A stretch of DNA of 64,000 nucleotides from Escherichia coli (GCF_022846255.1 NZ_AP025682.1), one strand, 5' to 3'; shown: positions 22,474-38,227, counted from the stretch's first letter. A program made the numbers and translations. The notes: a model not told the origin generated them from the sequence alone.

Positions 22474-23241
22474 ATGGCAGAAACCTCTTCAACCACCGCA
22501 GGCGCACAAACGTTATTACGTGGACTGGCGGTTCTTAATGCTGTTTATAACGGCTGCCATGACCTAAAAAGTATCGGCGAGTTCACCGGCACGACCCGGA
22601 GCACAACCCATCGTTTAGTCACCGTTCTGGTGGAACAACGCTACCTGCGCCATGTCCCAACGCAGGGCTACCAACTGGGTGCCAAACTGATCGAATTTGG
22701 TGCCAGAGCACTGGAAAGCACCTCGCTGTACGAAATTGCCCAGCCCGTTTTGCAACGCCTTGCCCGTTACACCCTGGACACCGTGCATCTGGGGATCGTT
22801 GAAGGCGACGAAGTGCTGTATCTGGAGAAGATCAACAGTCAGCGCGGGCTGGAAATGCGCTCACGCCCAGGCCATCGCATGCCACTGGCAATCACCGGCA
22901 TCGGCAAGGCATTGATCCTCAACCGAACAGAAGAAGAGTGGCGCACGCTGTTTAAGACCTGTGGTGATGAAACAAAACTGGGCACATTTATTCAGAACAT
23001 GCGTCGTTATGCCGCCAGTGGTTTTGCTTTTGATCTGGAAGAGAACGAGCCGACTATCCGTTGCGTTGCAGCGCCGGTTTACAACGCCCGGGATGAAATT
23101 GTGGCGGCTATTTCTGTCGCCAGTACCACCACGTATATGTCGCTGGCGCGTCTGGAAGAACTGGCACCTTACGTCAAATCCTGTGCAGAAGAGATATCCG
23201 CTGAACTGGGCTGGGGTAAGCACGTCCGCAAAGATAAATAA
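22474..23241 (+). CDS. IclR-family transcriptional regulator
   Basis: ORF from 22387; start taken at MAETSSTTAGAQTLLRGLAVLNA (RBS AGGAGA). N-terminal wHTH and C-terminal effector-domain pattern of IclR family. Confidence 0.85.
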   Translation: MAETSSTTAGAQTLLRGLAVLNAVYNGCHDLKSIGEFTGTTRSTTHRLVTVLVEQRYLRHVPTQGYQLGAKLIEFGARALESTSLYEIAQPVLQRLARYTLDTVHLGIVEGDEVLYLEKINSQRGLEMRSRPGHRMPLAITGIGKALILNRTEEEWRTLFKTCGDETKLGTFIQNMRRYAASGFAFDLEENEPTIRCVAAPVYNARDEIVAAISVASTTTYMSLARLEELAPYVKSCAEEISAELGWGKHVRKDK

Positions 23242-23264
23242 ACCATGATTAAAGGAAACGACTA

Positions 23265-24269
23265 ATGCCGGGAGCACCCTCATTTATTGCCCTGGACTGG
23301 GGAACGTCATCGCTTCGGGCATGGCGTTTTGGCGAATCACCAAATCCACAAGAAAAACGTGAATTCCCCTGGGGGATCATGAAATTACCCTCCCAGGCAG
23401 CAACACGTGAGGACGCTTTCCACGATACGTTTTTACGTGTCTGCGGCGACTGGCTGGCACAAACCCCATGCCCGGTACTGGCTTGCGGCATGCTCGGCAG
23501 TGCGCAAGGGTGGCAATCAGCAGCTTATTTACCTTGCCCGGTCACTCTCGAGGGTCTGGCGAAGCAGTTGACGCCTGTTATCCACCAGCAGCAGACAATG
23601 CTGCATATCATTCCTGGCGTGATTAAAGAAGGTGAAATGCCCGAAGTGATGCGTGGCGAAGAAACACAAATCTTCGGTGCTATCTCGATGGAACCGGCCC
23701 TGCAAAACGCGATCCATCAGGGTATGCCAGTGCTGATAGGCTTACCCGGCACACATGCGAAATGGGCAGTAGTTGAAAACAACACCATTACCGATTTCCG
23801 AACCTTTATGACGGGCGAGTTATTTGATGTTTTATCCCGCCATTCGATTCTCGGTGCCACCATGCATCCTGGAGATGAACCGCACTGGGATGCCTTCACC
23901 CACGGGCTGACAGCAGCACAAGAGCATCATCAGACCGGATTATTATCGACGCTGTTTTCGACCCGTTCGCGCCTGCTGACCAGTAATCTTACGTCGTCCT
24001 CGCAGGGGGATTACCTTTCCGGATTACTGATAGGCCATGAATTATGTGGTCTGGCATCCAGTTTGCTACGTGATTTACCCGCCACAACACCGATCGCCTT
24101 AATCGGTAGCGCAAATCTGAACAGCCGCTATTCACAAGCATTCAGCCACGTTTTTCCCGACAGACAGATACACGCCATTCCTAATGCCACTGAACAGGGA
24201 TTATGGCGAATCGCCCACGCTGCCGGGTTACTGTCCACCAACGCCAGGGAATGTACCCATGCCATTTAA
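23265..24269 (+). CDS. 2-dehydro-3-deoxygalactonokinase-family sugar-acid kinase (DgoK-like)
   Basis: 334-aa ORF; motifs IALDWGTSSLRAW, MRGEETQIFGA, DFRTFMTGELF, LSGLLIGHEL parallel E. coli DgoK as I recall it. Confidence 0.82.
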   Translation: MPGAPSFIALDWGTSSLRAWRFGESPNPQEKREFPWGIMKLPSQAATREDAFHDTFLRVCGDWLAQTPCPVLACGMLGSAQGWQSAAYLPCPVTLEGLAKQLTPVIHQQQTMLHIIPGVIKEGEMPEVMRGEETQIFGAISMEPALQNAIHQGMPVLIGLPGTHAKWAVVENNTITDFRTFMTGELFDVLSRHSILGATMHPGDEPHWDAFTHGLTAAQEHHQTGLLSTLFSTRSRLLTSNLTSSSQGDYLSGLLIGHELCGLASSLLRDLPATTPIALIGSANLNSRYSQAFSHVFPDRQIHAIPNATEQGLWRIAHAAGLLSTNARECTHAI

Positions 24270-24888
24270 TACGCTTTTGCAAAAAACCGGGTTAGTCGCC
24301 ATTTTACGCGGCGTGAAACCGGATGAGATTGTCGCCATCGGTGAAAAACTGTACGCCGCCGGATTCCGCCTGATTGAGATTCCTATGAACTCGCCGGAGG
24401 CGTTGCAAAGTATCAGTATACTGCGCGACGCCCTGCCTAAGGACTGCCTGGTCGGAGCCGGAACTGTGCTTTCGGTAGAGCAGGTGGTTGCGGTTAAAGA
24501 GGCTGGGGGCCAGATTATCGTGATGCCGCATTGCGATACTGCGGTGATCCGTCGCGCCCGTGCGCTGGGTATGTATTGTGCGCCTGGCGTCGCCACGCCC
24601 ACCGAAGCCTTTGCTGCCATTGAACATGGTGCTAATGCCATCAAGCTGTTCCCGGCTGAACAAATTACGCCAGAAGTTACCAAAGCCTGGCGTGCGGTTA
24701 TTCCACAATCCGTTCCGATGTTACCGGTTGGCGGTATCACACCGGAAACCATGGCGCGTTATCTGAGCCACGGCGCAAACGGCTTTGGCCTCGGTTCTGC
24801 GCTATATCGCCCCGGCATGACGCCAGAGCAAGTCTATGAAAATGCAGTACTGTTTATGAACGCATGGAACAATTTAAATAGCAACTAA
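24259..24888 (+). CDS. 2-dehydro-3-deoxy-6-phosphogalactonate / KDPG-type aldolase (DgoA-like)
   Basis: Start taken at MPFNTLLQKTGLVAILRGVKPDE (209 aa); motifs ILRG, GAGTV, GxATPTEAF, PVGGIT as in DgoA/Eda aldolases; start overlaps the kinase stop by 11 nt. Confidence 0.82.
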   Translation: MPFNTLLQKTGLVAILRGVKPDEIVAIGEKLYAAGFRLIEIPMNSPEALQSISILRDALPKDCLVGAGTVLSVEQVVAVKEAGGQIIVMPHCDTAVIRRARALGMYCAPGVATPTEAFAAIEHGANAIKLFPAEQITPEVTKAWRAVIPQSVPMLPVGGITPETMARYLSHGANGFGLGSALYRPGMTPEQVYENAVLFMNAWNNLNSN

Positions 24889-24912
24889 CTGATAAATAAG
24901 GATATAAAAGCA

Positions 24913-25887
24913 ATGATAAAACATCTTACCTTACCGAAAAAAATGGCTGCAATGGTACTTCTTGCAGGCGCTGCCCTCAGCATTGCGCCTGTACAGGCAG
25001 CCTCCTGGCCAACCAAACAGATCGAGTTAGTCGTTCCCTACGCTGCCGGAGGCGGTACGGATCTGGTTGCCCGTGCCTTTGCTGATGCCGCCAAAAACCA
25101 TTTACCCGTCAGCATCGGGGTTATCAATAAACCTGGCGGAGGCGGTGCTATCGGCCTGAGTGAAATCGCCGCTGCCCGCCCTAACGGTTACAAAATTGGT
25201 TTAGGCACGGTTGAACTGACCACCCTTCCCAGCCTCGGAATGGTGCGTTTTAAAACCAGCGACTTTAAACCCATTGCCCGTCTGAATGCGGATCCGGCTG
25301 CTATCACAGTCCGTGCCGATGCGCCGTGGAATAGCTATGAAGAATTTATGGCTTACTCCAAAGCGAATCCCGGAAAAGTACGCATTGGTAACTCAGGCAC
25401 CGGAGCTATCTGGCATCTGGCGGCAGCTGCACTGGAAGACAAAACGGGCACAAAGTTTTCTCATGTCCCGTATGACGGCGCAGCCCCTGCCATTACAGGC
25501 CTGTTAGGCGGGCACATTGAAGCGGTTTCCGTAAGCCCAGGAGAAGTTATCAACCATGTGAATGGCGGCAAGCTGAAGACACTGGTAGTGATGGCGGATG
25601 AGCGAATGAAAACCATGCCTGACGTCCCGACGTTAAAAGAGAAAGGCGTTGATCTCTCCATCGGCACCTGGCGCGGCCTGATTGTGTCGCAAAAAACGCC
25701 GCAGGATGTGGTGGATGTTCTGGCAAAGGCAGCAAAAGAGACGGCTGAAGAGCCTGCATTCCAGGATGCACTGCAAAAGTTGAATCTCAACTATGCATGG
25801 CTTGACGCTGCCAGCTTCCAGACCCAAATCAGCGAACAGGAAAAGTACTTTGACGAGTTGCTGACTCGCCTGGGCCTGAAAAAATAA
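24913..25887 (+). CDS. tripartite tricarboxylate transporter substrate-binding protein (TctC/Bug family), periplasmic
   Basis: 324 aa with signal peptide (MIKHLTLPKKMAAMVLLAGAALSIAPVQA) and typical Bug-family length. Confidence 0.8.
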   Translation: MIKHLTLPKKMAAMVLLAGAALSIAPVQAASWPTKQIELVVPYAAGGGTDLVARAFADAAKNHLPVSIGVINKPGGGGAIGLSEIAAARPNGYKIGLGTVELTTLPSLGMVRFKTSDFKPIARLNADPAAITVRADAPWNSYEEFMAYSKANPGKVRIGNSGTGAIWHLAAAALEDKTGTKFSHVPYDGAAPAITGLLGGHIEAVSVSPGEVINHVNGGKLKTLVVMADERMKTMPDVPTLKEKGVDLSIGTWRGLIVSQKTPQDVVDVLAKAAKETAEEPAFQDALQKLNLNYAWLDAASFQTQISEQEKYFDELLTRLGLKK

Positions 25888-25900
25888 ACCTGAGGTACGG

Positions 25901-26410
25901 TTGATGAACACAAAACAGTCTGTTGCTCAACTCGCCGTACCGCACCGCAAGCGCCTTTCATCAACGATGGTGGTGGCGCTGTTACTTTGTGTGGTTGCTG
26001 GCGCGGTGATGATTAATGCCGCTGATTTTCCAGCAACTGCCATTGAAACGGATCCCGGTGCAAGTGCCTTCCCTACCTTCTATGCCTGTGCCCTGATTGT
26101 GCTCGCTGTCTTGCTGGTGATACGCGATCTTTTGCAGGCAAAACCAGCCTCTTGCGCCAACGCACAGGAAAAACCGGCATTCAGGAAAACAGCAACAGGA
26201 ATTGCGGCAACCGCGTTTTATATTGTGGCGATGAGCTACTGCGGTTATCTCATTACTACTCCTGTTTTCCTCATCGTCATTATGACGTTGATGGGCTACA
26301 GGCGATGGGTACTCACACCGGGTATTGCGCTGCTGTTAACGGCAATCCTCTGGTTGCTGTTTGTCGAAGCGTTACAGGTGCCATTGCCTGTCGGCACATT
26401 TTTCGAATAA
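25901..26410 (+). CDS. tripartite tricarboxylate transporter small membrane subunit (TctB-like)
   Basis: 169-aa four-TM protein between TctC-like and TctA-like genes. Confidence 0.75.
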   Translation: MMNTKQSVAQLAVPHRKRLSSTMVVALLLCVVAGAVMINAADFPATAIETDPGASAFPTFYACALIVLAVLLVIRDLLQAKPASCANAQEKPAFRKTATGIAATAFYIVAMSYCGYLITTPVFLIVIMTLMGYRRWVLTPGIALLLTAILWLLFVEALQVPLPVGTFFE

Positions 26411-26422
26411 CAGGGGCCAGCA

Positions 26423-27913
26423 ATGTTTGAAAGTGAACTTTTAACTCAGGGTTTTTCGACATTACTCAATAATCCTCAGGCGCTGCTGTTTGCCACTTTT
26501 GGGGTGATGCTGGGTATTGTGATTGGCGCTTTGCCTGGTCTGACAGCGACCATGGGTGTGGCGATTTTGCTGCCTTTCACCTACGGCATGGAGCCTGTTT
26601 CTGGATTGTTGATGATTTGCGGCGTCTTTTTTGGTGGCGTCTACGGTGGTTCTATCACCGCAATTTTGCTCAAAATTCCCGGAACGCCTGCCGCCGCAGC
26701 CACCGCTATTGATGGTTATGAGCTGACGAAACAGGGAAAAGCAGGGCTGGCATTGAGTGCCGCCACGTTCTCTTCCTTTAGTGGCGGAACGCTCAGCATT
26801 ATCGTGCTGATGTTTCTCTCTCCGGTACTTGCCAGTTGGGCGCTGAAATTTAGTGCCTCGGAGTCCTTCGCCCTGGCAACCTTCGGACTGAGCATTATTG
26901 CCAGTATTTCCGGTGAGTCGCTGATTAAGGGGCTGATTGCCGGGGTTGGCGGATTGCTGATCGCAACGATAGGCCTTGATCCAATGGGCGGTTTTCCACG
27001 GTTTACAGGTGGATTTGTGGAGCTGATGAATGTGCCATTTATCCCGGTGATGATTGGTTTATTTGCTGCTTCAGAAGCATTCCGCTCTATGGAGCAAAAC
27101 CAGCAAATTCGTCGGGGCGCGAAGGTGGCTATCGGCAGTCTGTTACTGCCCTGGCAAACACTACGCCGCATCGCATTAACCATTTTGCGCTCATCAGGAT
27201 TAGGGGTTTTTATCGGCATGATCCCCGGTGCGGGGGCGGATATTGCAGCTTTTGTTGCCTATAACGAAACTCGTCGTTTCAGTAAGACACCAGAAAACTT
27301 TGGTAAGGGTGAAATTAAAGCTGTGGCCTCCTGTGAGGCAGGCGCGAATGGCTGCACCGGTGGCGCATTGTTACCTATGCTGACGCTGGGGATCCCTGGC
27401 GATGCGGTAACCGCCATCATGCTGGGCGCGTTAACGTTACAGGGAATGCAACCAGGCCCGCTGATGTTTACCGACCACGGCGATATGGTTTATACACTGT
27501 TTGTCGGCATGATCTTTTGTTACTTCATGCTGCTAGTTCTTGGACTGCTCTCTTTGAAAGTCATCGGTAACGTGGTGAAGATCCCCGGCAATATTCTCAC
27601 ACCGATGATCCTCGCACTTTGTGTGGTCGGGACTTATGCGTTGAACAATAGCCTTTTTGATGTTGGCATTATGCTGATTGCAGGCGTGGTGGGCTATTTC
27701 ATGCAGAAAGGAGGATATCCGGCATCACCCGTAGTGCTGGCATTGATTATGGGGCCAATGGCGGAAAGTAATTTTCGCCGTGCGCTGTCGCTTTCTGGTG
27801 GGTCACTCGACTTTCTGTATACCCGACCGATCACTCTGGCATTGCTAACTCTGGCAGCCTTTACGCTACTGACGCCAATAATCCGCAAAATAATGCGTTT
27901 ACGGCGTCAGTAA
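26423..27913 (+). CDS. tripartite tricarboxylate transporter large permease (TctA-like)
   Basis: 496-aa polytopic membrane protein with Gly-rich TctA-type segments. Confidence 0.82.
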   Translation: MFESELLTQGFSTLLNNPQALLFATFGVMLGIVIGALPGLTATMGVAILLPFTYGMEPVSGLLMICGVFFGGVYGGSITAILLKIPGTPAAAATAIDGYELTKQGKAGLALSAATFSSFSGGTLSIIVLMFLSPVLASWALKFSASESFALATFGLSIIASISGESLIKGLIAGVGGLLIATIGLDPMGGFPRFTGGFVELMNVPFIPVMIGLFAASEAFRSMEQNQQIRRGAKVAIGSLLLPWQTLRRIALTILRSSGLGVFIGMIPGAGADIAAFVAYNETRRFSKTPENFGKGEIKAVASCEAGANGCTGGALLPMLTLGIPGDAVTAIMLGALTLQGMQPGPLMFTDHGDMVYTLFVGMIFCYFMLLVLGLLSLKVIGNVVKIPGNILTPMILALCVVGTYALNNSLFDVGIMLIAGVVGYFMQKGGYPASPVVLALIMGPMAESNFRRALSLSGGSLDFLYTRPITLALLTLAAFTLLTPIIRKIMRLRRQ

Positions 27914-29945: not shown

Positions 29946-30039
29946 GCGGCAAACTTTTTTCCTGTTTTGTGCCGCTTTTCTCCTGAATACTCGTTCTCAG
30001 AACAACTGGATCGTTTAAACATCAGACAGGAGATTTACC

Positions 30040-30708
30040 ATGACGCAATCCATTTTTCAGGCTCAACCCTTTGAATTACCTTTTGATCCGCGCACAACTG
30101 CACTGGTCATGATCGACATGCAGCGTGACTTTGTCGAAGCAGGGGGCTTCGGTGAGGCACTGGGCAATGATGTTTCACTGGTACGCACGGCTATCGCACC
30201 ATGTACAGAGGTGCTGGCAGCCGCACGTCAAAAAGGAATTATGGTTATTCATACTCGTGAAGGCCATCGTGCAGACTTAAGCGACTGCCCGCCAGCCAAA
30301 CTGACGCGCGGCGGAAAAACCTTTATTGGTGAACCAGGACCGATGGGACGCATTCTGGTCAGAGGTGAAGCAGGTCATGACATCATTCCTGAACTGTACC
30401 CGGTGGCAGGCGAACCGGTGATTGATAAGCCTGGCAAAGGCGCGTTTTATCAAACCGACTTACATCTGATTTTGCAAAACCACGGTATCAAGACGCTGAT
30501 AGTTTGTGGTGTTACAACCGAAGTTTGCGTAACCACCACCGTGCGCGAAGCAAATGATCGTGGCTATGAATGCATTATCCCGGAAGATTGTGTCGGCTCC
30601 TATTTCCCGGAATTCCAGAAATACGCCCTCGAGATGATCAAAGCACAAGGTGCCATTTTCGGTTGGGTTACTGATTCCAAAGCCATTATTGCAGGCCTGG
30701 AAGGCTAA
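30040..30708 (+). CDS. isochorismatase-family cysteine hydrolase (RutB / N-carbamoylsarcosine amidase-like amidohydrolase)
   Basis: 222 aa; D-K-C triad context (VMIDMQRDF ... IVCGVTTEVCVTTT) typical of the isochorismatase-like hydrolase fold. Confidence 0.8.
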   Translation: MTQSIFQAQPFELPFDPRTTALVMIDMQRDFVEAGGFGEALGNDVSLVRTAIAPCTEVLAAARQKGIMVIHTREGHRADLSDCPPAKLTRGGKTFIGEPGPMGRILVRGEAGHDIIPELYPVAGEPVIDKPGKGAFYQTDLHLILQNHGIKTLIVCGVTTEVCVTTTVREANDRGYECIIPEDCVGSYFPEFQKYALEMIKAQGAIFGWVTDSKAIIAGLEG

Positions 30709-30713
30709 CACCG

Positions 30714-31574
30714 ATGGTACAGGTTACGCTTTGCGCATCGTCGTTGGGATATCTTTTCCCGCAGAATGAAACGCAAGATTTACGTCTACATAGCGCTTTT
30801 AAACATGCGGTAAATCTGTATTCAGACGCGGGAACATTCATCACTCTGTTGTGTGCGCAAACGTATCTGAATCTCCCTGATGCAGCCAGAGTCTGGCTAC
30901 CTGAATGTTGGGACTGGCGAAGAGAGATTGCCCATTCAGATCCCATTCAGTTAACCCCAGGCTTACTGCGGACACCTCGATTTTGTGTGGCGCTCGAAAA
31001 CGCAACGCTCTGGCAGTCGCCATTTGTGGGGGGAATGCTGACACTTGAGGCATTCCCTTTGGTTTTCCAGCACTACCCAACGATGGCATCGCAACGGCTT
31101 TTATTTTGTCTGGAACATAACGTTCAAAGCACATTGCACCTGCCGGATAGTCTCACGCACCAGGGATTAGCGATTATGGAGCATCCAGATGCGCTGGAAC
31201 GCCAGGTGCCACAACTGATCGGCTTTGGTAAAGGCTTAACGCCCGATGGAGATGACTATTTGTTGGGCTATCTGGCAGCACTCTGGTTATGGCAACTCCC
31301 TGCACCACTTGCCGATCATCAATACCGGTTGCAGCAGGTAATTGATCAACATGCGCACAACACCACGGATATCAGTCGTCATTATCTGGAGCGTGCGCTT
31401 CAGGGACATTTTTCAGAACCGATTTGCCAGTTACTCGCACAACTGGTTGGGAGTGCATCGGCAATGACAATCGCATCCTGTGCAGAACAGGTCATGCAAT
31501 TTGGCGCAACGTCAGGAGTAGATTGCCTTGCAGGAATGCTGCATGGCTTTCGAACCCTGAACACCATGAATTGA
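30714..31574 (+). CDS. hypothetical protein, possibly YlbF/DUF2877-like
   Basis: 286-aa ORF 6 nt after the hydrolase stop; family guess rests on synteny with FdrA-like and DUF1116-like genes, not on motif recognition. Confidence 0.55.
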   Translation: MVQVTLCASSLGYLFPQNETQDLRLHSAFKHAVNLYSDAGTFITLLCAQTYLNLPDAARVWLPECWDWRREIAHSDPIQLTPGLLRTPRFCVALENATLWQSPFVGGMLTLEAFPLVFQHYPTMASQRLLFCLEHNVQSTLHLPDSLTHQGLAIMEHPDALERQVPQLIGFGKGLTPDGDDYLLGYLAALWLWQLPAPLADHQYRLQQVIDQHAHNTTDISRHYLERALQGHFSEPICQLLAQLVGSASAMTIASCAEQVMQFGATSGVDCLAGMLHGFRTLNTMN

Positions 31575-31668
31575 TTTCAACCTTTTCTCCCGTAGCCCGT
31601 TTATGGGGCTACACGGGGATGCTTTGCCCGAATTTTGCTATCGGGCGGAATGAAACAGGCGTAACAGC

Positions 31669-33228
31669 ATGAAAGTTAAATATAAAGTTTTCAGTAATCT
31701 TTATCAGGACTCAGTTTCTCTGATGCAGATTTCCGCGCAAATCAGCAAGTTGCCCGGTATTCAACAGGCCTCGGTCGTCATGGGAACACCCAATAATCTC
31801 GAGCAATTGAGCGATGCGGGTCTGGGTAACGAAATCAACGCCAGTCCCAATGATTTAGTGATTGCAGTCATGGGTGAAGAAGATATTTGCAATGAAGCAC
31901 TGGTACTGGCCCAGCAACGTCTGACCAGCAAACCCGATGATGAAACGGATAGTGGCATTAAAACACCGGAAAAGGTCAGCCTGGAAATGGCACTGGAAGC
32001 CGAGCCCGAAGCCAACCTGGCACTCATTTCTGTACCGGGAGACTACGCCGCCGCCGAAGCAATTAAAGCGTTAAACCTCGGAATGAACGTGATGATGTTC
32101 AGCGATAACGTCAGTATCGTGCAGGAAAAATCCATCAAAACGCTTGCCCGAGAACGTCAGCGCATCGTAATGGGACCTGACTGTGGAACCGCCATTGTTA
32201 ACGGCATTCCGTTAGGCTTCGCTAATGTGGTGAAACGCGGAGCAATTGGTGTTATTGGCGCGTCAGGCACCGGGCTACAGGAAGTGACTTGCCGAATCGA
32301 CCAGCTCGGAGCGGGTATTTCTCAGGCGTTGGGAACAGGCGGACATGATCTCAGTGAAGAGATTGGTGGAATATCGATGCTCTTCGCTTTAGATGCGCTG
32401 GCGCAAGACGATGAAACTCGCGTGATTGTGCTTATTTCAAAACCGCCTTCACCGATCGTTGCCCGGACTATTCTGGAGCGTGCCGAGGCTTGTGGAAAAC
32501 CCGTGGTGGTGAATTTCCTCGGTGCGAATCCGCATGATCTGGCACGTCCCAATATCACCGCGGCCACCACACTTGCCAGCGCCGCAAATATCGCCGTGGC
32601 GTTACTGAATGATCAACCACTTCCGACTATCGAGACCGAAATTTCCTGCGACGATCTCACAATGTTACAAAACGCCTGCCAGCGCCTGCCAGCCCATCGC
32701 CAGGCGATACGCGGTGTTTTCGCCGGAGGAACCTTCTGCTACGAAGCGCAACTTATCTGCCAACAAAAGGGATTCATCGCAGCCTCCAATACGCCAGTTG
32801 CGGGTAATCGTGCTCTGGCAAATATCTGGCAAATCGAAGATCACACGTTGATCGATATGGGCGACGATGATTTCACCCGTGGCAAACCGCATCCAATGAT
32901 CGACCCGACTCTGCGCAATCAACGTCTGCTCAACGAACTCAACGACTCACACACTGCCGTCGTGTTATTCGACCTGGTACTTGGTTATGGCGCTTCCACG
33001 ACGCCTGCCAGCGAATTACTGGACCAACTTTCACACATCGACATGAATAACGCACCGTTGCTGATTGCGCACGTTTGCGGAACGGAAGCTGATCCGCAAA
33101 TACGCAGTCAGCAGATAAGCGCACTACAAAATGCAGGGGTCATCATCGCCAGCAGCAATGCACAGGCGGCGCTATGGGCCAGCACCGTTGCACAGACTCA
33201 GTTGCAGAAAAAGGGGCTAAACGCATGA
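31669..33228 (+). CDS. FdrA-like protein (acyl-CoA synthetase/succinyl-CoA synthetase alpha-like, NAD(P)-binding)
   Basis: 519 aa; shares FQDSVSLM, VMGTP, LALISVPG.YAA, NVMMFSDNV, MGPDCGT, GVIGASGTG, GKPHPMIDPTLRNQ with E. coli FdrA as I recall it. Confidence 0.82.
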   Translation: MKVKYKVFSNLYQDSVSLMQISAQISKLPGIQQASVVMGTPNNLEQLSDAGLGNEINASPNDLVIAVMGEEDICNEALVLAQQRLTSKPDDETDSGIKTPEKVSLEMALEAEPEANLALISVPGDYAAAEAIKALNLGMNVMMFSDNVSIVQEKSIKTLARERQRIVMGPDCGTAIVNGIPLGFANVVKRGAIGVIGASGTGLQEVTCRIDQLGAGISQALGTGGHDLSEEIGGISMLFALDALAQDDETRVIVLISKPPSPIVARTILERAEACGKPVVVNFLGANPHDLARPNITAATTLASAANIAVALLNDQPLPTIETEISCDDLTMLQNACQRLPAHRQAIRGVFAGGTFCYEAQLICQQKGFIAASNTPVAGNRALANIWQIEDHTLIDMGDDDFTRGKPHPMIDPTLRNQRLLNELNDSHTAVVLFDLVLGYGASTTPASELLDQLSHIDMNNAPLLIAHVCGTEADPQIRSQQISALQNAGVIIASSNAQAALWASTVAQTQLQKKGLNA

Positions 33229-34649
33229 ATACCTTATTTAATCAGCCTTTGAAGGTCGTGAACGCGGGACTACACAGTTTTGCTGACAATATTCAACATG
33301 CCGGGGGAAGCGCAATTGCACTCAACTGGCAGCCACCAGCACAAGGCGATATTGACGCTGGATTGGATCTGGCATCGTTGCTACGTCATCCCCTGGTAGA
33401 AAATGCCAACCAAATCGCCATGACACGTTATCTCGAAGCACAGCCCGTGCTGGTGGATGTCATGCTCGCTAAAGAGGCCATTCCAGCAATGGCTGAACAA
33501 AAACGTATTTTGCACTCTGGCCCGCCGATTGCCTGGGAAGAGATGTGTGGTCCGGTAAAAGGGGCGATTATTGGTGCCATGCTGTACGAAGGTTGGGCCA
33601 CCAGCCAGCAAGACGCTGAAAACCAAATAAACGCAGGCGAAATCGACCTTGCCCCTTGTCATCATTATCACGCGGTTGGCCCAATGGCAGGCATCATCAG
33701 CCCGTCGATGCCGTTATGGGTGGTAGAAAACAAAACCAACGGCCATCGTACTTTTAGCAATTTCAATGAAGGGCTGGGTAAGGTTCTCCGTTTTGGCGCC
33801 AATAACGATGAAGTTCTCAATCGTCTGGCCTGGATGCGCGATGAACTGGCGCCGGCAATGAAAGCAGCAATCGCACAACACGGCGAGCTGGAACTCAAGC
33901 CATTAATGGCGCAGGCGCTGCATATGGGGGATGAAGTTCATAACCGCAATGCTGCCGCTACCGGTTTGCTGATTAAGCGCCTGCTCCCGGCATTGCTGGC
34001 CTGCTCTCTTCCACAGGAACATATCCAGCGCGTCGTGGCATTTATCACCGGTAACGATCACTTCTTCCTCAATCTTTCGATGGCCGCCTGTAAAGCAATG
34101 ATGGATGCCGCCGCCAATGTACCGTTCAGTTCAATGGTTACGGTGATGGCGCGTAACGGGGTGAATTTTGGTATTCGGCTTTCCGGTACTGGCGATCGCT
34201 GGTTCCAGGCTCCTGCCAATGCCGTTGAAGGTCTGTTCTTCCCCGGATTTGGCGTCGACGATGCCGCTGCTGACCTGGGTGATAGCGCAATTACTGAAAC
34301 CGCAGGTGTGGGTGGCTTCGCGATGGCGTCATCTCCAGCGATCGTCAAATTTGTGGGAGGCACCCCTGCCGATGCCACCAATAACAGCCGTAGGATGCAA
34401 GCAATCACCCTCGGTGGTAACCCCGCATTTACACTTCCTGCCCTCAATTTTGCCCCCACCGCAGCAGGGATTGATGCGCGTAAAGTGACCGATCGCGGCA
34501 TTTTACCGGTCATCAATACGGGTATCGCCCACAAACAAGCGGGGGTCGGGCAAATTGGTGCCGGGATCACCACTGCGCCGATGGCCTGTTTTGTCGCCGC
34601 TGTACGTGCACTGGCGGAGATCGTCGCAAAGGAGAACCATCATGGTTAA
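33225..34649 (+). CDS. DUF1116-family protein (YlbE-like)
   Basis: Start taken at MNTLFNQPLKVVNAG, whose ATG overlaps the fdrA-like stop (ATGA); ORF track starts 17 codons upstream. Family call by synteny and length. Confidence 0.7.
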   Translation: MNTLFNQPLKVVNAGLHSFADNIQHAGGSAIALNWQPPAQGDIDAGLDLASLLRHPLVENANQIAMTRYLEAQPVLVDVMLAKEAIPAMAEQKRILHSGPPIAWEEMCGPVKGAIIGAMLYEGWATSQQDAENQINAGEIDLAPCHHYHAVGPMAGIISPSMPLWVVENKTNGHRTFSNFNEGLGKVLRFGANNDEVLNRLAWMRDELAPAMKAAIAQHGELELKPLMAQALHMGDEVHNRNAAATGLLIKRLLPALLACSLPQEHIQRVVAFITGNDHFFLNLSMAACKAMMDAAANVPFSSMVTVMARNGVNFGIRLSGTGDRWFQAPANAVEGLFFPGFGVDDAAADLGDSAITETAGVGGFAMASSPAIVKFVGGTPADATNNSRRMQAITLGGNPAFTLPALNFAPTAAGIDARKVTDRGILPVINTGIAHKQAGVGQIGAGITTAPMACFVAAVRALAEIVAKENHHG

Positions 34650-35598
34650 GCCACTGGCTGTCGTCGCGGTTGGCGGCAATGCGCTCATTCAGGACGAGCA
34701 ACGCAATAGTATTCCCGATCAATATGTTGCAGTGATGGAAAGCGTGCAACATATCGTTGATATGGTTGAAGCCGGATGGGACCTGGTACTAACCCACGGT
34801 AATGGCCCGCAGGTGGGCTTTATTCTGCGCCGCTCTGAACTCGCCAGTAACGAAGTTTCTCCGGTTCCACTTGATTACGCCGTGGGTGATACACAAGGTG
34901 CAATTGGCTACATGTTCCAGAAAGCGCTGCATAACGAATTGGCTCGCCGTGGCATAAACAAACCGGTAATTGCCCTGGTGACACAAACGCGAGTCAGCCC
35001 ACATGACGATGCTTTCGCCAGCCCCAGTAAACCAATTGGCGCGTTTCTCGATGAAGCAACGGCCCAACAACGCCAACAACAACTCGGCTGGACGCTGATG
35101 GAGGACGCCGGGCGTGGTTGGCGGCGTACAGTTCCCTCTCCTGCACCACTGGAAATTATTGAGCACGACACCATCGCTCACCTGGTGCGCCAGGGATATC
35201 TGGTTATTGCCTGCGGCGGCGGCGGTATTCCGGTGGTGCGAGACGGGCAACAACTGAAAGGTGTGGAAGCCGTGATCGATAAAGATCTGGCCTCCGCGCT
35301 GCTCGCCAGTCAGTTAGGCGCAGATCTGCTGGTGATCCCCACCGGTGTAGAAAAAGTAGCGATTAACTTTGGTACACCACAACAACAGTGGCTCGACGCT
35401 ATCAGCGTTGCCGAAGCGCAAACGCTGTTGCGGGAAGGTCAGTTTGGTGTCGGCAGTATGCAACCCAAAGTGGAAGCCATTGTTGATTTCATCAATGCCA
35501 GCCAGCAACAAGGCAAACAGGCCAGCGGCCTGATTACTTCACCGCAAACCATAAAAGCAGCCCTGGCGCATCAGAGCGGTACATGGATAACCCTTTAA
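34642..35598 (+). CDS. carbamate kinase-like (amino acid kinase family, YqeA/ArcC-like)
   Basis: Start MVKPLAVVAVGGNALIQDEQRNS with RBS AAGGAGAA; amino-acid-kinase fold motifs (VAVGGNAL, THGNGPQVG, VIACGGGGIPV); overlaps the upstream stop by 8 nt. Confidence 0.82.
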   Translation: MVKPLAVVAVGGNALIQDEQRNSIPDQYVAVMESVQHIVDMVEAGWDLVLTHGNGPQVGFILRRSELASNEVSPVPLDYAVGDTQGAIGYMFQKALHNELARRGINKPVIALVTQTRVSPHDDAFASPSKPIGAFLDEATAQQRQQQLGWTLMEDAGRGWRRTVPSPAPLEIIEHDTIAHLVRQGYLVIACGGGGIPVVRDGQQLKGVEAVIDKDLASALLASQLGADLLVIPTGVEKVAINFGTPQQQWLDAISVAEAQTLLREGQFGVGSMQPKVEAIVDFINASQQQGKQASGLITSPQTIKAALAHQSGTWITL

Positions 35599-35614
35599 TT
35601 CTCTGGAGAACACA

Positions 35615-36004
35615 ATGACTACAACGCTTTTAGCCGTTAACGGAACGCTGATGCGCGGCCTGGAACTCAACCCAAATATGCAAAAAGCGGGCGGTATTTT
35701 TGTCCGTGAAGACCGAACTGACGCCCATTACCGGTTGTGGAGTATTAATGATCGCCATCCGGGAATGATTCGCGTGAATGAAGGAGGAACACACGTCGAC
35801 GTAGAAATTTGGCAATTACCGCTGGCCAGTTTTGCCGCTCTGTTAATGAGCGAACCCGCTGGGCTGGCAATTGGCAAAATCAAACTTGCCGATGGTAGCG
35901 AAGTGCTGGGCGTACTGGCAGAAAACTGGCTGACCGAAGGCCAACGGGAAATTACAGAACTGGGTAGCTGGCGCAAATACACCGGGCATTTTCATACTGT
36001 GTAA
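35615..36004 (+). CDS. small protein, probably gamma-glutamylcyclotransferase-like (AIG2/GGCT fold)
   Basis: 129 aa; family call is tentative, based on size and general resemblance to GGCT-like domains. Confidence 0.5.
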   Translation: MTTTLLAVNGTLMRGLELNPNMQKAGGIFVREDRTDAHYRLWSINDRHPGMIRVNEGGTHVDVEIWQLPLASFAALLMSEPAGLAIGKIKLADGSEVLGVLAENWLTEGQREITELGSWRKYTGHFHTV

Positions 36005-36029
36005 CGCGCATTTATAAAGGGAACATACT

Positions 36030-37253
36030 ATGCGTAAAAAAGAAGAGAATCTGAATACGGCATCAGGATTGCGTATTGCCATGATTTTGCTGGGTATTGC
36101 CGTCACACCTGTGCTGTTGTCATCCTCAAGCCTCGGCAATCAACTTTCCAGCGGCAGTTTAATTAGCGTCGTATTGTTAGGCGGCGTCATTCTGACCTTA
36201 CTTTCAGCCATCACCATTAGCGTGGGAGAAAAAGCCCGCCTGCCAACGTATGGCATTGTGAAATATTCGTTTGGCGAAAAAGGGGCCATCGCCATTAACA
36301 TTTTGATGGCGATAAGTCTGTTCGGCTGGATTGCCGTTACCGCCAATATGTTTGGTCATTCGGTACATGACTTACTGGCTCAACATGGACTGGAAGTTCC
36401 ACTGGCACTGTTAGTGGCGGCTGGCTGTGTCATTTTTGTCGCCTCTACGGCATTTGGCTTTGCCGTTCTGGGAAAAATTGCCCAGGTTGCCGTGCCGGTT
36501 ATCGCGCTGGTGCTGTGTTACATCCTCTATGTGGCAACCCATACCGAAGTGGCAGTACCAGCGGCGATTGTGGAGATGAATACAGGTGTCGCCGTTTCCA
36601 CCGTTGTTGGCACCATTATTGTGCTGGTTGCCACACTGCCTGATTTCGGTAGTTTTGTGCATAACCGCAAACATGCGCTGATTGCCGCAGGCGTGACGTT
36701 TCTGGTTGCCTACCCTCTGCTCTACTGGGCGGGTGCAACGCCGAGCGCCATTAGTGGTCAGGGATCTTTACTGGGTGCGATGGCGGTATTCGGTGCGGTT
36801 CTGCCTGCGGCGCTGTTGTTGATTTTCGCCTGCGTCACCGGTAACGCGGGCAATATGTTCCAGGGCACGCTGGTGGTTTCCACACTGCTTACCCGCTTTC
36901 CCAAATGGCAGATTACCGTGGCGCTGGGTATCCTTTCCGCCATCGTAGGCAGTATGGATATTATGGCGTGGTTTATTCCGTTTCTGCTGTTCCTGGGTAT
37001 CGCCACGCCACCCGTTGCCGGAATTTATATCGCTGACTTTTTCCTTTATCGCCGTAATGGCTATCAAGAGTCAGTGTTAGCCCAGGAGTCACAGATTAAA
37101 GTGCTGACATTCGCAGCATGGATCATAGGCGCAGCGGTTGGCTTTATGACCGTAAAAGGCTTATTCACCCTGACGACGATCCCTTCGGTAGACTCGATTC
37201 TGGTGGCATGTATCGCGTATGCGATTCTCAGTCGGGCAAGTCAACACCGCTAA
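36030..37253 (+). CDS. NCS1-family nucleobase permease (cytosine/purine permease CodB-like)
   Basis: 407-aa, ~12-TM protein with CodB-like length and hydrophobicity pattern. Confidence 0.7.
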   Translation: MRKKEENLNTASGLRIAMILLGIAVTPVLLSSSSLGNQLSSGSLISVVLLGGVILTLLSAITISVGEKARLPTYGIVKYSFGEKGAIAINILMAISLFGWIAVTANMFGHSVHDLLAQHGLEVPLALLVAAGCVIFVASTAFGFAVLGKIAQVAVPVIALVLCYILYVATHTEVAVPAAIVEMNTGVAVSTVVGTIIVLVATLPDFGSFVHNRKHALIAAGVTFLVAYPLLYWAGATPSAISGQGSLLGAMAVFGAVLPAALLLIFACVTGNAGNMFQGTLVVSTLLTRFPKWQITVALGILSAIVGSMDIMAWFIPFLLFLGIATPPVAGIYIADFFLYRRNGYQESVLAQESQIKVLTFAAWIIGAAVGFMTVKGLFTLTTIPSVDSILVACIAYAILSRASQHR

Positions 37254-37330
37254 TTCCTGGGTATACTCAGGCAATGATTACGGCTGAATCTGGAGAGATT
37301 CAGCCACTTTACCACTGACCAGGGAGCCTT

Positions 37331-38227
37331 ATGTTCATCTCAGACGAAACGCTTCGTGTTATTCATCTGGTCGCCAGACACCAGAGCATTACCACCGCAG
37401 CCGAGCAGTTAAATAAAGTCCCTTCCGCCATCAGTTACACCATCAAGAAAGCGGAAGAGAGCCTGGGCGTTGAACTGTTCATTCGTAAGGGACGCTATAT
37501 TGAATTATCGCCAGCGGGAAGTTACTTCATCGAACATAGCAAAACTATTCTTGGCGACCTGGAAGCATTAAAGCGCAACACAGTGCTGATTCACGATGGT
37601 ATTGAGCGTGAACTGACAATAGCGGTAAACAATATTATTCCTGGTGATTTGCTGGTGGCATTTATTCGAGATTTTGAACGGCAATTCACATCAACAACAC
37701 TGACGGTAGATCTTGAGGTATACAACGGCTGCTGGGATGCGCTGTACAGTAAGCGTGCTGATCTGGTCTACGGTGCTCCTCATGCAGTACCAAGCAGTGA
37801 AGGCATCATTAGCGAACCGGTCGGACAAATGGAATGGGATTTTGTCGTCAGCCCACTCCACCCACTGGCAGCGAAGCGGCATCCATTAGAAAACAGTGAA
37901 TTGCGTCATTATCCAGCGGTTTGTATCCGCGATACCTCCGTTAACTTCCCCCCGATGCAAGCCTGGTTGTTGGAAGGACAAAAACCCATTTTTGTTCCTG
38001 ACTTCGCTACGGCAATCGCCTTAATAGAACAAAACGTCGGTATTGGTTATATTCCACATCATCTGGCATTGCCGTTATTGAACAGCGGTAAATTGCTTAA
38101 AAAGCCAATGCGCGAACATAAACACGCCACCAAGTTATTTCTTGCCGCTCGTTCCGATGGTATGGGCAAAGCCTGTCAGTGGTGCATAGAATATTTAAGA
38201 AATCCGCAATTAATTTTCTGTTCCTGA
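37331..38227 (+). CDS. LysR-family transcriptional regulator
   Basis: 298 aa; N-terminal HTH (LRVIHLVARHQSITTAAEQLNKVPSAISYTIKKAEESLGVELFIR). Confidence 0.88.
   Translation: MFISDETLRVIHLVARHQSITTAAEQLNKVPSAISYTIKKAEESLGVELFIRKGRYIELSPAGSYFIEHSKTILGDLEALKRNTVLIHDGIERELTIAVNNIIPGDLLVAFIRDFERQFTSTTLTVDLEVYNGCWDALYSKRADLVYGAPHAVPSSEGIISEPVGQMEWDFVVSPLHPLAAKRHPLENSELRHYPAVCIRDTSVNFPPMQAWLLEGQKPIFVPDFATAIALIEQNVGIGYIPHHLALPLLNSGKLLKKPMREHKHATKLFLAARSDGMGKACQWCIEYLRNPQLIFCS

What the first reader, a model, noticed from the sequence alone, without database searches (positions are those of the whole stretch)
33225..34649. Translational coupling in the FdrA-like / DUF1116 / carbamate-kinase trio
The DUF1116 start ATG overlaps the FdrA-like stop (ATGA, 33225-33228) and the carbamate kinase start overlaps the DUF1116 stop by 8 nt (34642-34649). 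Overlapping reading frames of this kind usually indicate stoichiometric co-expression, consistent with these proteins forming one complex.
Basis: partly seen in the sequence, partly recalled or inferred. Interest (0 to 1): 0.35.

Follow-up and report, generated by a model that had tools for sequence, protein, structure and literature searches.

The report
Overlapping genes in transcarbamylase-kinase operon
The two gene overlaps are real but are the ordinary kind seen in bacterial operons; the first joins two halves of one split enzyme, and the second joins that enzyme to a separate kinase that uses its product.

Summary
Both overlaps exist exactly as described: ATGA at 33225-33228 and 8 nt at 34642-34649. 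Each start has a good Shine-Dalgarno motif, and conserved N-termini support both start codons.

The genes belong to an accessory E. coli operon found in about 29% of complete genomes. It is a paralog of allFGHK, which encodes oxamic transcarbamylase plus carbamate kinase.

The complex idea holds for FdrA-like plus DUF1116. They are fused into one ~1000-aa protein in many Firmicutes, the split point differs between paralogs, and AllF/AllG co-purify. It does not hold for the kinase. AllK and AllFGH are each active alone, no kinase fusion to FdrA or DUF1116 was seen, and the kinase is instead fused to the next gene (AH_C) in mycobacteria.

Overlap geometry is not conserved among close orthologs, and the proven AllF/AllG pair is 9 nt apart.

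Side lead: the operon's cysteine hydrolase carries the triuret-hydrolase (TrtA) signature, which suggests an untested ATP-yielding route for triuret-type ureides.

The parts
30040..30708 (+). Cysteine hydrolase of the isochorismatase fold, of the triuret-hydrolase (TrtA) type; first gene of the operon
   Evidence: Pfam Isochorismatase 163.7 bits. The best solved relative is TrtA 6XIX (E 8.7e-80), ahead of BiuH (about 1e-69). Catalytic D/K/C and all six TrtA-versus-BiuH discriminating residues are TrtA-type. The NCBIfam BiuH score of 279.8 is below the 370 cut-off.
30714..31574 (+). DUF2877 / AllH-like protein, the probable third and looser subunit of the transcarbamylase
   Evidence: Pfam AllH 95.3 bits against a cut-off of 25. 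It is only about 41-51% identical to close orthologs whose neighbours are about 70-90% identical, and it is absent from 9 of the 25 loci that carry hydrolase, kinase and AH_C.
31575..31668 (+). 94-nt intergenic spacer with two hairpins (about 31589-31619 and 31627-31647); function unknown
   Evidence: Fold z = -1.70. Close orthologs have hairpin-bearing spacers of 93-146 nt. No Rfam match and no terminator or promoter call in the spacer on the + strand.
31669..33228 (+). FdrA / AllF-like subunit (SCS-alpha-like CoA_binding plus Ligase_CoA domains)
   Evidence: Pfam. NCBIfam FdrA subfamily 495.7 bits against a cut-off of 433. PDB 3DMY E 4.6e-85. The motif D396-x-G-D-D-x-F-T-x-G-(R/K)-P-H408-P-M-I-D has invariant D396, G398, T403, G405, H408, P409 and M410 across 75 homologs.
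33210..33216 (+). Shine-Dalgarno motif (AAAGGGG) for DUF1116, inside the FdrA-like coding region
   Evidence: Direct reading. An SD-like motif 6-9 nt upstream is kept in orthologs whether or not the genes overlap.
33225..33228 (+). ATGA stop/start overlap (-4) between FdrA-like and DUF1116
   Evidence: the PGAP annotation agrees.
33225..34649 (+). DUF1116 / AllG-like subunit, long form (474 aa)
33225..33389 (+). Mobile N-terminal segment of about 55 residues. In other lineages it is attached to FdrA, free-standing, or part of a full fusion
   Evidence: Homologous to the AllF C-terminal tail (E 3e-7). Alignments. Stand-alone mini-genes in L088 and L080.
34629..34634 (+). Shine-Dalgarno motif (AAGGAG) for the carbamate kinase, inside the DUF1116 coding region
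   Evidence: Direct reading. AGGAGAA is conserved in the enterobacterial orthologs although the encoded C-termini vary.
34642..34649 (+). 8-nt overlap (ATGGTTAA) between DUF1116 and the carbamate kinase
   Evidence: Derived from the orthologous ATGA by an A-to-G change at 34645.
34642..35598 (+). Carbamate kinase (ArcC/AllK type)
   Evidence: NCBIfam arcC equivalog 366.2 bits against a cut-off of 358.25, and PRK12352 at 377.6 against 266. Pfam AA_kinase.
35615..36004 (+). Stand-alone homolog of the allophanate hydrolase C-terminal domain (AH_C)
   Evidence: Pfam AH_C 141.6 bits. Essentially identical to PDB 5C5Z (E 1.7e-85). Fused to the kinase in six loci.
36030..37253 (+). NCS1-family (cytosine/purine/allantoin-type) permease
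   Evidence: Pfam Transp_cyt_pur. NCBIfam cytosine permease 145.7 bits, below the 326 cut-off.
37331..38227 (+). LysR-type regulator, closest to PunR and AllS
   Evidence: Pfam HTH_1 plus LysR_substrate. NCBIfam PunR 286.7 and AllS 214.3 bits, both below their cut-offs.

Best explanation
The two overlaps are ordinary tight operon junctions in an accessory E. coli operon that is a paralog of allFGHK (oxamic transcarbamylase plus catabolic carbamate kinase).

At the ATGA junction, the FdrA-like and DUF1116 proteins are two pieces of one enzyme. A ribosome finishing FdrA can re-initiate at the overlapping ATG, helped by the SD 8 nt upstream, which favours near-equimolar synthesis of two obligate partners.

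At the 8-nt junction, the same mechanism probably passes ribosomes on to the carbamate kinase. The kinase is a separate enzyme that consumes the transcarbamylase's labile product, carbamoyl phosphate, to make ATP. This overlap reflects co-expression within a pathway, not membership of one complex.

Shown here: the overlaps, the start codons, the SD motifs, the family assignments, the fusions, the shifting split point and the comparative junction statistics. Inferred: that re-initiation actually operates here, the stoichiometry, and that the kinase is not stably bound.
For: The overlaps, starts and SD motifs are confirmed.

Family identities come from Pfam AllH, AllG, CoA_binding/Ligase_CoA and AA_kinase and from NCBIfam FdrA and arcC scores above their cut-offs.

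FdrA and DUF1116 behave as one unit:
- All 120 listed relatives of fusion protein P0135 are about 1000 aa at full coverage, including complete genomes of cultured Firmicutes, and NCBI names some of them 'bifunctional FdrA/YlbE family protein'.
- A segment of about 55 residues sits on DUF1116 here and in YahG, on AllF in the all operon (E 3e-7), and is a free 55-58-aa mini-gene in L088 and L080.
- FdrA is adjacent in 49 of 49 loci with full flanks.
- Untagged AllG elutes with His-AllF in similar amounts (PMC11326118).
- The single-chain AF2 model has pTM 0.71.

The junctions are tight across 80 species. FdrA to DUF1116 has median -1 nt with 47 of 67 in -8..+10. DUF1116 to the kinase has median +2 with 32 of 47 in that range. 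Overlaps are enriched at the core junctions over other junctions of the same loci (39/63 against 4/49, Fisher p = 2e-9).

Overlapping pairs were strictly coupled in 13 of 14 tested cases (PMC6728339), and coupling decays over +14 to +38 nt (PMC10666635).

The kinase is a separate enzyme. Purified AllK alone is active, and allFGHK is co-transcribed (PMC9843812). The kinase is fused to AH_C in six loci.
Against: No experiment exists on this operon, so coupling and stoichiometry are inferred.

Both downstream starts have good SD motifs, and neither junction has unusual mRNA structure (z = +1.05, +0.99, +0.77 and -0.17). Independent initiation is therefore possible and coupling need not be obligatory.

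Overlap is not conserved among close orthologs: Caballeronia has +10 and +19, Budvicia +11 and -4. The proven AllF/AllG pair is +9.

A transient kinase-transcarbamylase association for channelling carbamoyl phosphate cannot be excluded.

The survey's start codons were chosen heuristically and the species are not phylogenetically independent. The AF2 result lacks a PAE matrix and could not be cross-checked.
Confidence: 0.7

Rival explanations
1. One reading: the FdrA-like, DUF1116 and carbamate kinase proteins assemble into one stoichiometric complex, and the two overlaps exist to enforce that stoichiometry.
For: Both junctions fall in the range that permits re-initiation and are tight in most species. 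The kinase follows DUF1116 directly in 47 of the 50 loci where both were called on the same strand, and a kinase gene lies within 6.5 kb in 37 of 49 full-flank loci. Carbamoyl phosphate is labile, so channelling would be useful. From memory only, a carbamate-kinase-like enzyme and ornithine transcarbamylase were reported to channel carbamoyl phosphate in Pyrococcus; this was not checked here.
Against: AllK alone and AllFGH alone are each active, and deleting ybcF barely affects allantoin degradation. None of the ten fusion candidates scanned for domains carries a kinase domain, whereas FdrA-DUF1116 fusions are abundant. The kinase is instead fused to AH_C. In K-12 paralogs the kinase overlaps allH (-4) or lies 421 nt from yahG. 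The known third subunit is DUF2877/AllH, not the kinase.
Confidence: 0.13
2. The overlaps are neutral by-products of operon compaction and stop-codon drift. Each gene is initiated independently at its own Shine-Dalgarno site, and the overlap has no regulatory consequence.
For: Both starts have strong SD motifs in unstructured mRNA. The -8 arose from -4 by a single base change. Close orthologs have +4 to +19 gaps and keep their SD motifs. AllF/AllG work with a +9 gap. Overlaps are common in this window at pairs that do not form complexes.
Against: Overlaps are concentrated at the core junctions compared with other junctions of the same loci (39/63 against 4/49). Of 14 natural overlapping pairs tested experimentally, 13 were strictly coupled. 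Tight spacing at these two junctions persists across phyla.
Confidence: 0.17

Closest known systems
E. coli K-12 allFGHK (fdrA-ylbE-ylbF-ybcF): oxamic transcarbamylase AllFGH plus catabolic carbamate kinase AllK
   Same: It has the same four protein families in one operon. AllF and AllG co-purify and three genes are needed for activity. The operon is co-transcribed and the kinase uses the carbamoyl phosphate made by the transcarbamylase.
   Different: This is a paralog, not an ortholog: DUF1116 is 48% identical to AllG, and FdrA is about 40% identical by the figure quoted in PMC12928451. The gene order differs (H-F-G-K here, F-G-H-K there). The split point between F and G differs by about 55 residues. 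The junctions differ (+9, +10, -4 there; +94, -4, -8 here). The context differs: there the allantoin genes allDCE, here a TrtA-type hydrolase, AH_C, an NCS1 permease and a LysR regulator.
E. coli K-12 yahEFGI(J), an uncharacterised y-ome cluster
   Same: It has the same gene order (DUF2877, FdrA-like, long-form DUF1116, carbamate kinase) and the same split point. yahE/yahF overlap by 11 nt and yahF/yahG by 1 nt.
   Different: DUF1116 is 46% identical to YahG. The kinase yahI lies 421 nt downstream of yahG. Its partners are an ankyrin protein (YahD) and an amidohydrolase (YahJ), not a cysteine hydrolase and AH_C. No functional data were found.
Triuret/biuret pathway TrtA-TrtB-BiuH-AtzF (Herbaspirillum sp. 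BH-1)
   Same: The first gene here matches TrtA best (E 8.7e-80), with the catalytic triad and all six specificity-linked residues. The operon also carries a homolog of the C-terminal domain of allophanate hydrolase.
   Different: The operon has no BiuH, no TrtB (which belongs to the AtzH/HpxZ family) and no amidase domain of AtzF. In their place are the FdrA/DUF1116/DUF2877 transcarbamylase and a carbamate kinase.
Overlapping gene pairs translated by termination-reinitiation (Huber et al. 2019 and 2023)
   Same: The pairs are co-directional with -4 and -8 overlaps and have an SD inside the upstream gene. This class is enriched for subunits of heteromeric complexes.
   Different: Nothing unusual was found. 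Coupling has not been measured for these pairs, and the enrichment is only 30.4% against 6.8%, so overlap alone does not show complex formation.
Succinyl-CoA synthetase alpha/beta
   Same: The FdrA-like protein shares the CoA_binding region with SCS-alpha (E 3e-13) and carries a Pfam Ligase_CoA domain.
   Different: DUF1116 is not SCS-beta-like; its fold has no relative in the PDB outside its own family. The FdrA family lacks the GHAGA phosphohistidine motif and has an invariant GxPHPMID motif instead.

Membership tests
AllFGH-type (FdrA/DUF1116/DUF2877) carbamoyltransferase | AllF-like subunit with CoA_binding and Ligase_CoA domains | tested here: met
   Pfam 42.7 and 138.2 bits. NCBIfam FdrA subfamily 495.7 bits against a cut-off of 433. 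PDB 3DMY E 4.6e-85.
AllFGH-type (FdrA/DUF1116/DUF2877) carbamoyltransferase | AllG-like subunit (PF06545) encoded directly after the AllF-like gene | tested here: met
   Pfam AllG 329.8 bits. Adjacent in 49 of 49 full-flank loci.
AllFGH-type (FdrA/DUF1116/DUF2877) carbamoyltransferase | AllH-like subunit (PF11392) in the same operon | tested here: met
   Pfam AllH 95.3 bits at 30714-31574. However, it is missing from 9 of 25 related loci.
AllFGH-type (FdrA/DUF1116/DUF2877) carbamoyltransferase | Physical association of the F and G subunits | tested here: met
   The evidence is indirect but comes from several sources: natural fusions, the moving split point and the single-chain AF2 model with pTM 0.71. 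Direct co-purification is shown only for the paralog.
Oxamic transcarbamylase in the strict sense (oxalurate + Pi <-> carbamoyl phosphate + oxamate) | Orthology to AllFGH and linkage to the allantoin genes (allDCE) | tested here: not met
   DUF1116 is 48% identical to AllG. The neighbours are a TrtA-type hydrolase, AH_C, an NCS1 permease and a LysR regulator, and no all genes are present.
Oxamic transcarbamylase in the strict sense (oxalurate + Pi <-> carbamoyl phosphate + oxamate) | Catalytic activity on oxalurate/oxamate | not testable with these tools
   This needs an enzyme assay.
Translationally coupled (termination-reinitiation) gene pair | Co-directional genes spaced -8 to +10 nt | tested here: met
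   -4 and -8. The range is as defined in PMC10666635.
Translationally coupled (termination-reinitiation) gene pair | Short spacing kept in orthologs | tested here: met
   Medians are -1 and +2 nt, with 47/67 and 32/47 junctions inside -8..+10. The exact overlap is not conserved.
Translationally coupled (termination-reinitiation) gene pair | Downstream translation depends on upstream translation | not testable with these tools
   This needs a reporter assay. The mRNA folds show no sequestration of the start sites, so dependence is not predicted to be absolute.
Carbamate kinase (ArcC/AllK) | Score above the curated equivalog cut-off | tested here: met
   TIGR00746 scores 366.2 bits against a cut-off of 358.25.
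   None of the ten fusion candidates scanned carries a kinase domain. The kinase is fused to AH_C instead. The paralogous enzymes are active separately. A transient interaction was not testable.
Triuret hydrolase TrtA (isochorismatase-like cysteine hydrolase) | Catalytic D24/K129/C162, substrate-binding residues, and the six residues that separate TrtA from BiuH | tested here: met
   D, K, C, E72, K132 and Q202 are conserved. F35, N41, A134, E160, Y187 and I205 are all TrtA-type. Of 35 cluster-linked homologs, 28 carry FNAEYI or FNSEYI.
Triuret hydrolase TrtA (isochorismatase-like cysteine hydrolase) | Hydrolysis of triuret to carboxybiuret | not testable with these tools
   This needs an enzyme assay.

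The most novel reading that the evidence does not exclude
The operon is not a second oxalurate system. It would be a single, undescribed ATP-yielding route for triuret-type ureides in a urease-negative bacterium.

Proposed steps:
1. The TrtA-type hydrolase makes carboxybiuret.
2. The FdrA/DUF1116(/DUF2877) enzyme cleaves carboxybiuret, and then allophanate, with phosphate to give carbamoyl phosphate.
3. The kinase converts the carbamoyl phosphate into ATP.
4. AH_C disposes of the N-carboxy product.

This would bypass biuret hydrolase, allophanate hydrolase and urease.

Points in favour:
- The TrtA signature is near-universal in cluster-linked hydrolases.
- Hydrolase, kinase and AH_C co-occur in 25 of 49 loci across phyla.
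- The kinase is fused to AH_C in six loci.
- Carboxybiuret and allophanate resemble oxalurate chemically.
- Comammox contigs that carry allFGHK lack trtB.

No paper in the held library proposes this.
Probability: 0.3. Interest if true: 0.6.

Novelty: new member of a known kind. Interest (0 to 1): 0.27.

Why it matters
As stated, the finding matters little. Overlapping start and stop codons are routine in operons, and the FdrA/DUF1116/DUF2877 enzyme has been known as a heteromer since 2024.

The follow-up adds three things:
- A clear sequence-based argument that FdrA and DUF1116 are one enzyme split at variable points, which could guide structural work on a transcarbamylase whose quaternary structure is unsolved.
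- A correction of the proposed trio: DUF2877 is the subunit-type partner, and the kinase pairs with AH_C.
- A testable substrate hypothesis (triuret, carboxybiuret or allophanate) for an accessory operon carried by about 29% of complete E. coli genomes, shared by ExPEC and AIEC strains, and found from mycobacteria to comammox Nitrospira.

Tried and rejected
1. Upstream start for DUF1116 at 33174: rejected on ortholog lengths and the aligned N-termini.

2. Obligatory coupling through mRNA structure that hides the start sites: not supported. The folds are no more stable than shuffled sequence (z = +1.05, +0.99, +0.77, -0.17).

4. A conserved SCS-type GHAGA phosphohistidine loop in FdrA: absent. 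The family has an invariant GxPHPMID motif instead.

5. A known RNA element in the 94-nt DUF2877-FdrA spacer: no Rfam match and no terminator or promoter call there.

6. AH_C as a homolog of the carboxybiuret decarboxylase TrtB: rejected. TrtB groups with AtzH and HpxZ.

7. The cysteine hydrolase as biuret hydrolase: its score is below the NCBIfam BiuH cut-off and its residues are TrtA-type.

8. Cross-check of the single-chain model against AlphaFold DB: the library was unavailable.

9. Primary papers on allophanate hydrolase structure and on TrtB were not held. I used a review instead (PMC5770610).

10. A regex census of the mobile segment across loci was too strict and was discarded.

11. 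No functional literature was found on yahEFGI.
Full report
OBSERVATION. The FdrA-like ORF (31669-33228) ends in TGA at 33226-33228, and the DUF1116 ATG is at 33225, giving ATGA. DUF1116 ends in TAA at 34647-34649, and the kinase ATG is at 34642, giving an 8-nt overlap. Each downstream start has a Shine-Dalgarno motif inside the upstream gene: AAAGGGG at 33210-33216 and AAGGAG at 34629-34634. NCBI's annotation of a 99.8%-identical genome uses the same starts.

An in-frame ATG at 33174 could extend DUF1116, but orthologs are 467-480 aa long and all begin at the aligned M-x-x-LF-x-QPL. The kinase N-terminus is conserved in the same way.

The 8-nt overlap is a one-base derivative of the 4-nt overlap found in Serratia, Edwardsiella and Budvicia. 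ATGA became ATGG at 34645, which removed the TGA stop, so the frame runs on to the next TAA.

IS IT MORE THAN CHANCE? No. In the 50 kb of this window covered by annotation, 5 of 30 same-strand neighbouring gene pairs overlap. Huber et al. report that -4 is by far the commonest junction in E. coli, followed by -1 and -8 (PMC10666635), and that in most prokaryotic groups the fraction of co-directional overlapping gene pairs is close to 15% (PMC6728339).

WHAT THE GENES ARE. The region is an eight-gene operon-like block, 30040-38227, lying between ysgA and metE. It is present in 1559 of 5426 complete E. coli genomes, with 127 of the matching places on plasmids. It has been described as genomic region "GR 29 metE..ysgA", shared by ExPEC and AIEC strains (PMC12928451).

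Pfam and NCBIfam give this order:
- an isochorismatase-fold cysteine hydrolase
- DUF2877 (AllH)
- FdrA (AllF-like)
- DUF1116 (AllG)
- carbamate kinase
- a stand-alone homolog of the allophanate hydrolase C-terminal domain (AH_C)
- an NCS1 permease
- a LysR regulator

It is therefore a third E. coli paralog of allFGHK and yahEFGI. AllF, AllG and AllH together are the oxamic transcarbamylase, which interconverts oxalurate plus phosphate with carbamoyl phosphate plus oxamate. AllK is the catabolic carbamate kinase (PMC11326118; PMC9843812).

THE FIRST JUNCTION: TWO HALVES OF ONE ENZYME. Several independent lines show that FdrA-like and DUF1116 form one unit.
- Adjacency. In 49 of 49 related loci with complete flanks, spanning many phyla, an FdrA gene lies directly upstream of DUF1116.
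- Fusion. The two are fused, in the same order, into single proteins of about 1000 aa. A search of 1.8 billion representatives found many such proteins, and Pfam confirmed CoA_binding/Ligase_CoA followed by AllG. One fusion lies on a 28-kb contig followed by an AllH gene. All 120 listed relatives of that protein are full-length fusions, including complete genomes of Jeotgalibaca, Fundicoccus, Paenibacillus macerans and Clostridium nigeriense, and NCBI names some of them "bifunctional FdrA/YlbE family protein".
- Moving break point. The first ~55 residues of this DUF1116 (and of YahG) are homologous to the C-terminal tail of AllF (41% identity over 32 residues, E = 3e-7). AllG starts just after that segment. 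In two other loci the segment is a free-standing gene of 55-58 codons between FdrA and a short DUF1116. The same unit therefore occurs fused, split before the segment, split after it, and split on both sides.
- Co-purification. In the paralog, untagged AllG elutes with His-tagged AllF in similar amounts.
- Structure prediction. A single-chain AlphaFold2 model of this window's FdrA joined to DUF1116, built on a paired and fusion alignment, gave pTM 0.71 and mean pLDDT 85.8. Only the HMA linker and the artificial junction had low confidence. Two independently floating halves would cap pTM near 0.5. I had no PAE matrix and could not cross-check against AlphaFold DB, so this is supportive only.

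THE SECOND JUNCTION: A SEPARATE ENZYME. Nothing I tested places the kinase in the complex. Purified AllK alone is an active carbamate kinase, purified AllFGH alone is an active transcarbamylase, and deleting ybcF barely changes allantoin degradation. None of the ten fusion candidates I scanned for domains carries a kinase domain. The kinase is instead fused to the next gene, AH_C, in five mycobacterial loci and one Burkholderiales MAG. In K-12 the kinase gene overlaps allH by 4 nt in one paralog and lies 421 nt from yahG in the other. The subunit-type third partner, DUF2877/AllH, is encoded upstream at 30714-31574 and is separated from the FdrA-like gene by a 94-nt spacer.

COMPARATIVE JUNCTIONS. 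I called the cluster genes in 80 species-level loci by homology and chose starts by N-terminal alignment. This is a heuristic, and the species are not phylogenetically independent.

Overlap rates at junctions of 60 nt or less:
- FdrA to DUF1116: 34 of 67 overlap; median -1 nt; 47 of 67 within -8..+10.
- DUF1116 to kinase: 21 of 47 overlap; median +2 nt; 32 of 47 within -8..+10.
- DUF2877 to FdrA: 9 of 15 overlap.

Other junctions of the same clusters overlap in 4 of 49 cases. Within loci that have both kinds of junction, the comparison is 39/63 against 4/49 (Fisher p = 2e-9). So tight spacing among these genes is a conserved tendency. The exact geometry is not: close orthologs have -4/-4 (Serratia, Edwardsiella), +11/-4 (Budvicia) and +10/+19 (Caballeronia). 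The experimentally proven AllF/AllG pair is +9.

HOW WELL OVERLAP PREDICTS A COMPLEX. In E. coli, 30.4% of pairs spaced -8 to +10 encode subunits of heteromeric complexes, against 6.8% of pairs more than 20 nt apart. That is an enrichment, not a rule. In this window, fadBA (+9) and tatABC (+2, +3) are complexes that do not overlap, while dgoK/dgoA (-11) are separate sequential enzymes that do.

WILL COUPLING OPERATE? Probably, but not exclusively. Of 14 natural overlapping pairs tested, 13 were strictly coupled, and coupling decays over +14 to +38 nt. Both downstream starts here have good SD motifs, which are kept in orthologs whether or not the genes overlap. Neither junction has more mRNA structure than shuffled controls. 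Independent initiation is therefore also possible.

SIDE LEAD ON FUNCTION. The first gene's closest solved relative is the triuret hydrolase TrtA (6XIX, E 8.7e-80), ahead of the biuret hydrolases. It scores below NCBI's biuret hydrolase cut-off. Against the published TrtA analysis (PMC7948467), the catalytic triad and binding residues are conserved, and all six positions that separate TrtA from BiuH are TrtA-type.

Across 35 hydrolases linked to these clusters:
- 22 carry the full TrtA signature.
- 6 differ only by A134S, the one tested change that was not deleterious.
- 4 Firmicutes variants carry FNAHFI.
- 2 are truncated.
- The single BiuH-type copy is a Nitrospira gene 3.2 kb away from its cluster.

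Hydrolase, kinase and AH_C co-occur in 25 of 49 full-flank loci. The C domain of allophanate hydrolase catalyses the step after amide cleavage (PMC5770610). A 2025 study noted biuH/trtA next to allFGHK in comammox bacteria and in archaea, but read them as two separate pathways. It also recorded that the comammox contigs with allFGHK lack trtB.

A single pathway fits these facts. Triuret would be hydrolysed to carboxybiuret. Carboxybiuret, and then allophanate, would be cleaved with phosphate to carbamoyl phosphate, and the kinase would use that to make ATP. This is untested, and I give it about 0.3.

VERDICT. The finding is a new member of a known kind: an uncharacterised paralog of a known heteromeric transcarbamylase operon with routine overlapping junctions.

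Noticed in passing
window 33225-33389; L003:8190-8345; L088:1297-1473; L080 (gap between FdrA and DUF1116): A conserved segment of about 55 residues (V11, N13, G15, F19, W35, P37, G41 and L49 invariant) is encoded in different places. It sits at the N-terminus of DUF1116 here and in YahG, at the C-terminus of AllF in the all operon, as a free 55-58-codon mini-gene in two other loci, and inside full FdrA-DUF1116 fusions in Firmicutes.
   Followed up: yes
L012-L015, L032 (mycobacteria) and L035 (Burkholderiales MAG); corresponds to window 34642-36004: The carbamate kinase and the AH_C protein are fused into one ORF of about 450 aa in six loci. This points to a functional or physical link between the kinase and AH_C rather than between the kinase and DUF1116.
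   Followed up: partly
window 30040-30708: The operon's cysteine hydrolase carries the complete triuret-hydrolase (TrtA) residue signature, not the biuret-hydrolase one. So do 28 of 35 homologs linked to FdrA/DUF1116 clusters across phyla.
   Followed up: yes
window 31575-31668: The 94-nt spacer between DUF2877 and the FdrA-like gene contains two hairpins (z = -1.7). Close orthologs have hairpin-bearing spacers of 93-146 nt, with partial sequence conservation between E. coli and Edwardsiella. There is no Rfam match and no T-run. Its function is unknown; it may set different expression levels for the upstream and downstream genes.
   Followed up: partly
window 35615-36004: The AH_C protein is essentially identical to PDB entry 5C5Z (E 1.7e-85), which was deposited under the name 'Glutamyl-tRNA amidotransferase'. 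That name does not fit its family assignment.
   Followed up: no
window 30714-31574: DUF2877/AllH is much less conserved than its neighbours, at about 41-51% identity against about 70-90% in the same close orthologs. It is absent from several related clusters (mycobacteria, two Caballeronia species), although AllH is required for activity in the all operon.
   Followed up: partly
window 31669-33228 (FdrA-like residues 396-412): The motif D-x-G-D-D-x-F-T-x-G-(R/K)-P-H-P-M-I-D has an invariant histidine (H408) across 75 FdrA homologs. The SCS-type GHAGA phosphohistidine motif is absent. H408 is a candidate catalytic residue.
   Followed up: partly
[not shown]
   Followed up: yes
window 30000-36100 (whole island): The island is accessory: it is found in 1559 of 5426 complete E. 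coli genomes, and 127 of the matching places are on plasmids. DUF1116 orthologs are 72-88% identical across Enterobacterales, Burkholderiales, Vibrionaceae and Psychrobacter, which suggests horizontal spread.
   Followed up: no
window 22474-27913: A second block lies between rmuC and udp. It encodes an IclR regulator, 2-dehydro-3-deoxygalactonokinase-like and aldolase-like genes (overlapping by 11 nt) and a tripartite tricarboxylate transporter. From memory rmuC and udp are adjacent in K-12, so this block may also be accessory.
   Followed up: no
L087 (metagenome contig): A short-form DUF1116 gene (416 aa) has no FdrA gene directly upstream and is followed by a PaaA/PaaC-family gene. This is a possible exception to the universal FdrA-DUF1116 adjacency, but the contig is only 2.5 kb.
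   Followed up: no
L048, L065, L081 (gaps of 687-762 nt) and L051, L055, L063, L079 (gaps of 118-188 nt) between FdrA and DUF1116: These larger gaps in the junction survey were not explained. They may hold an inserted gene or reflect mis-called start codons.
   Followed up: no
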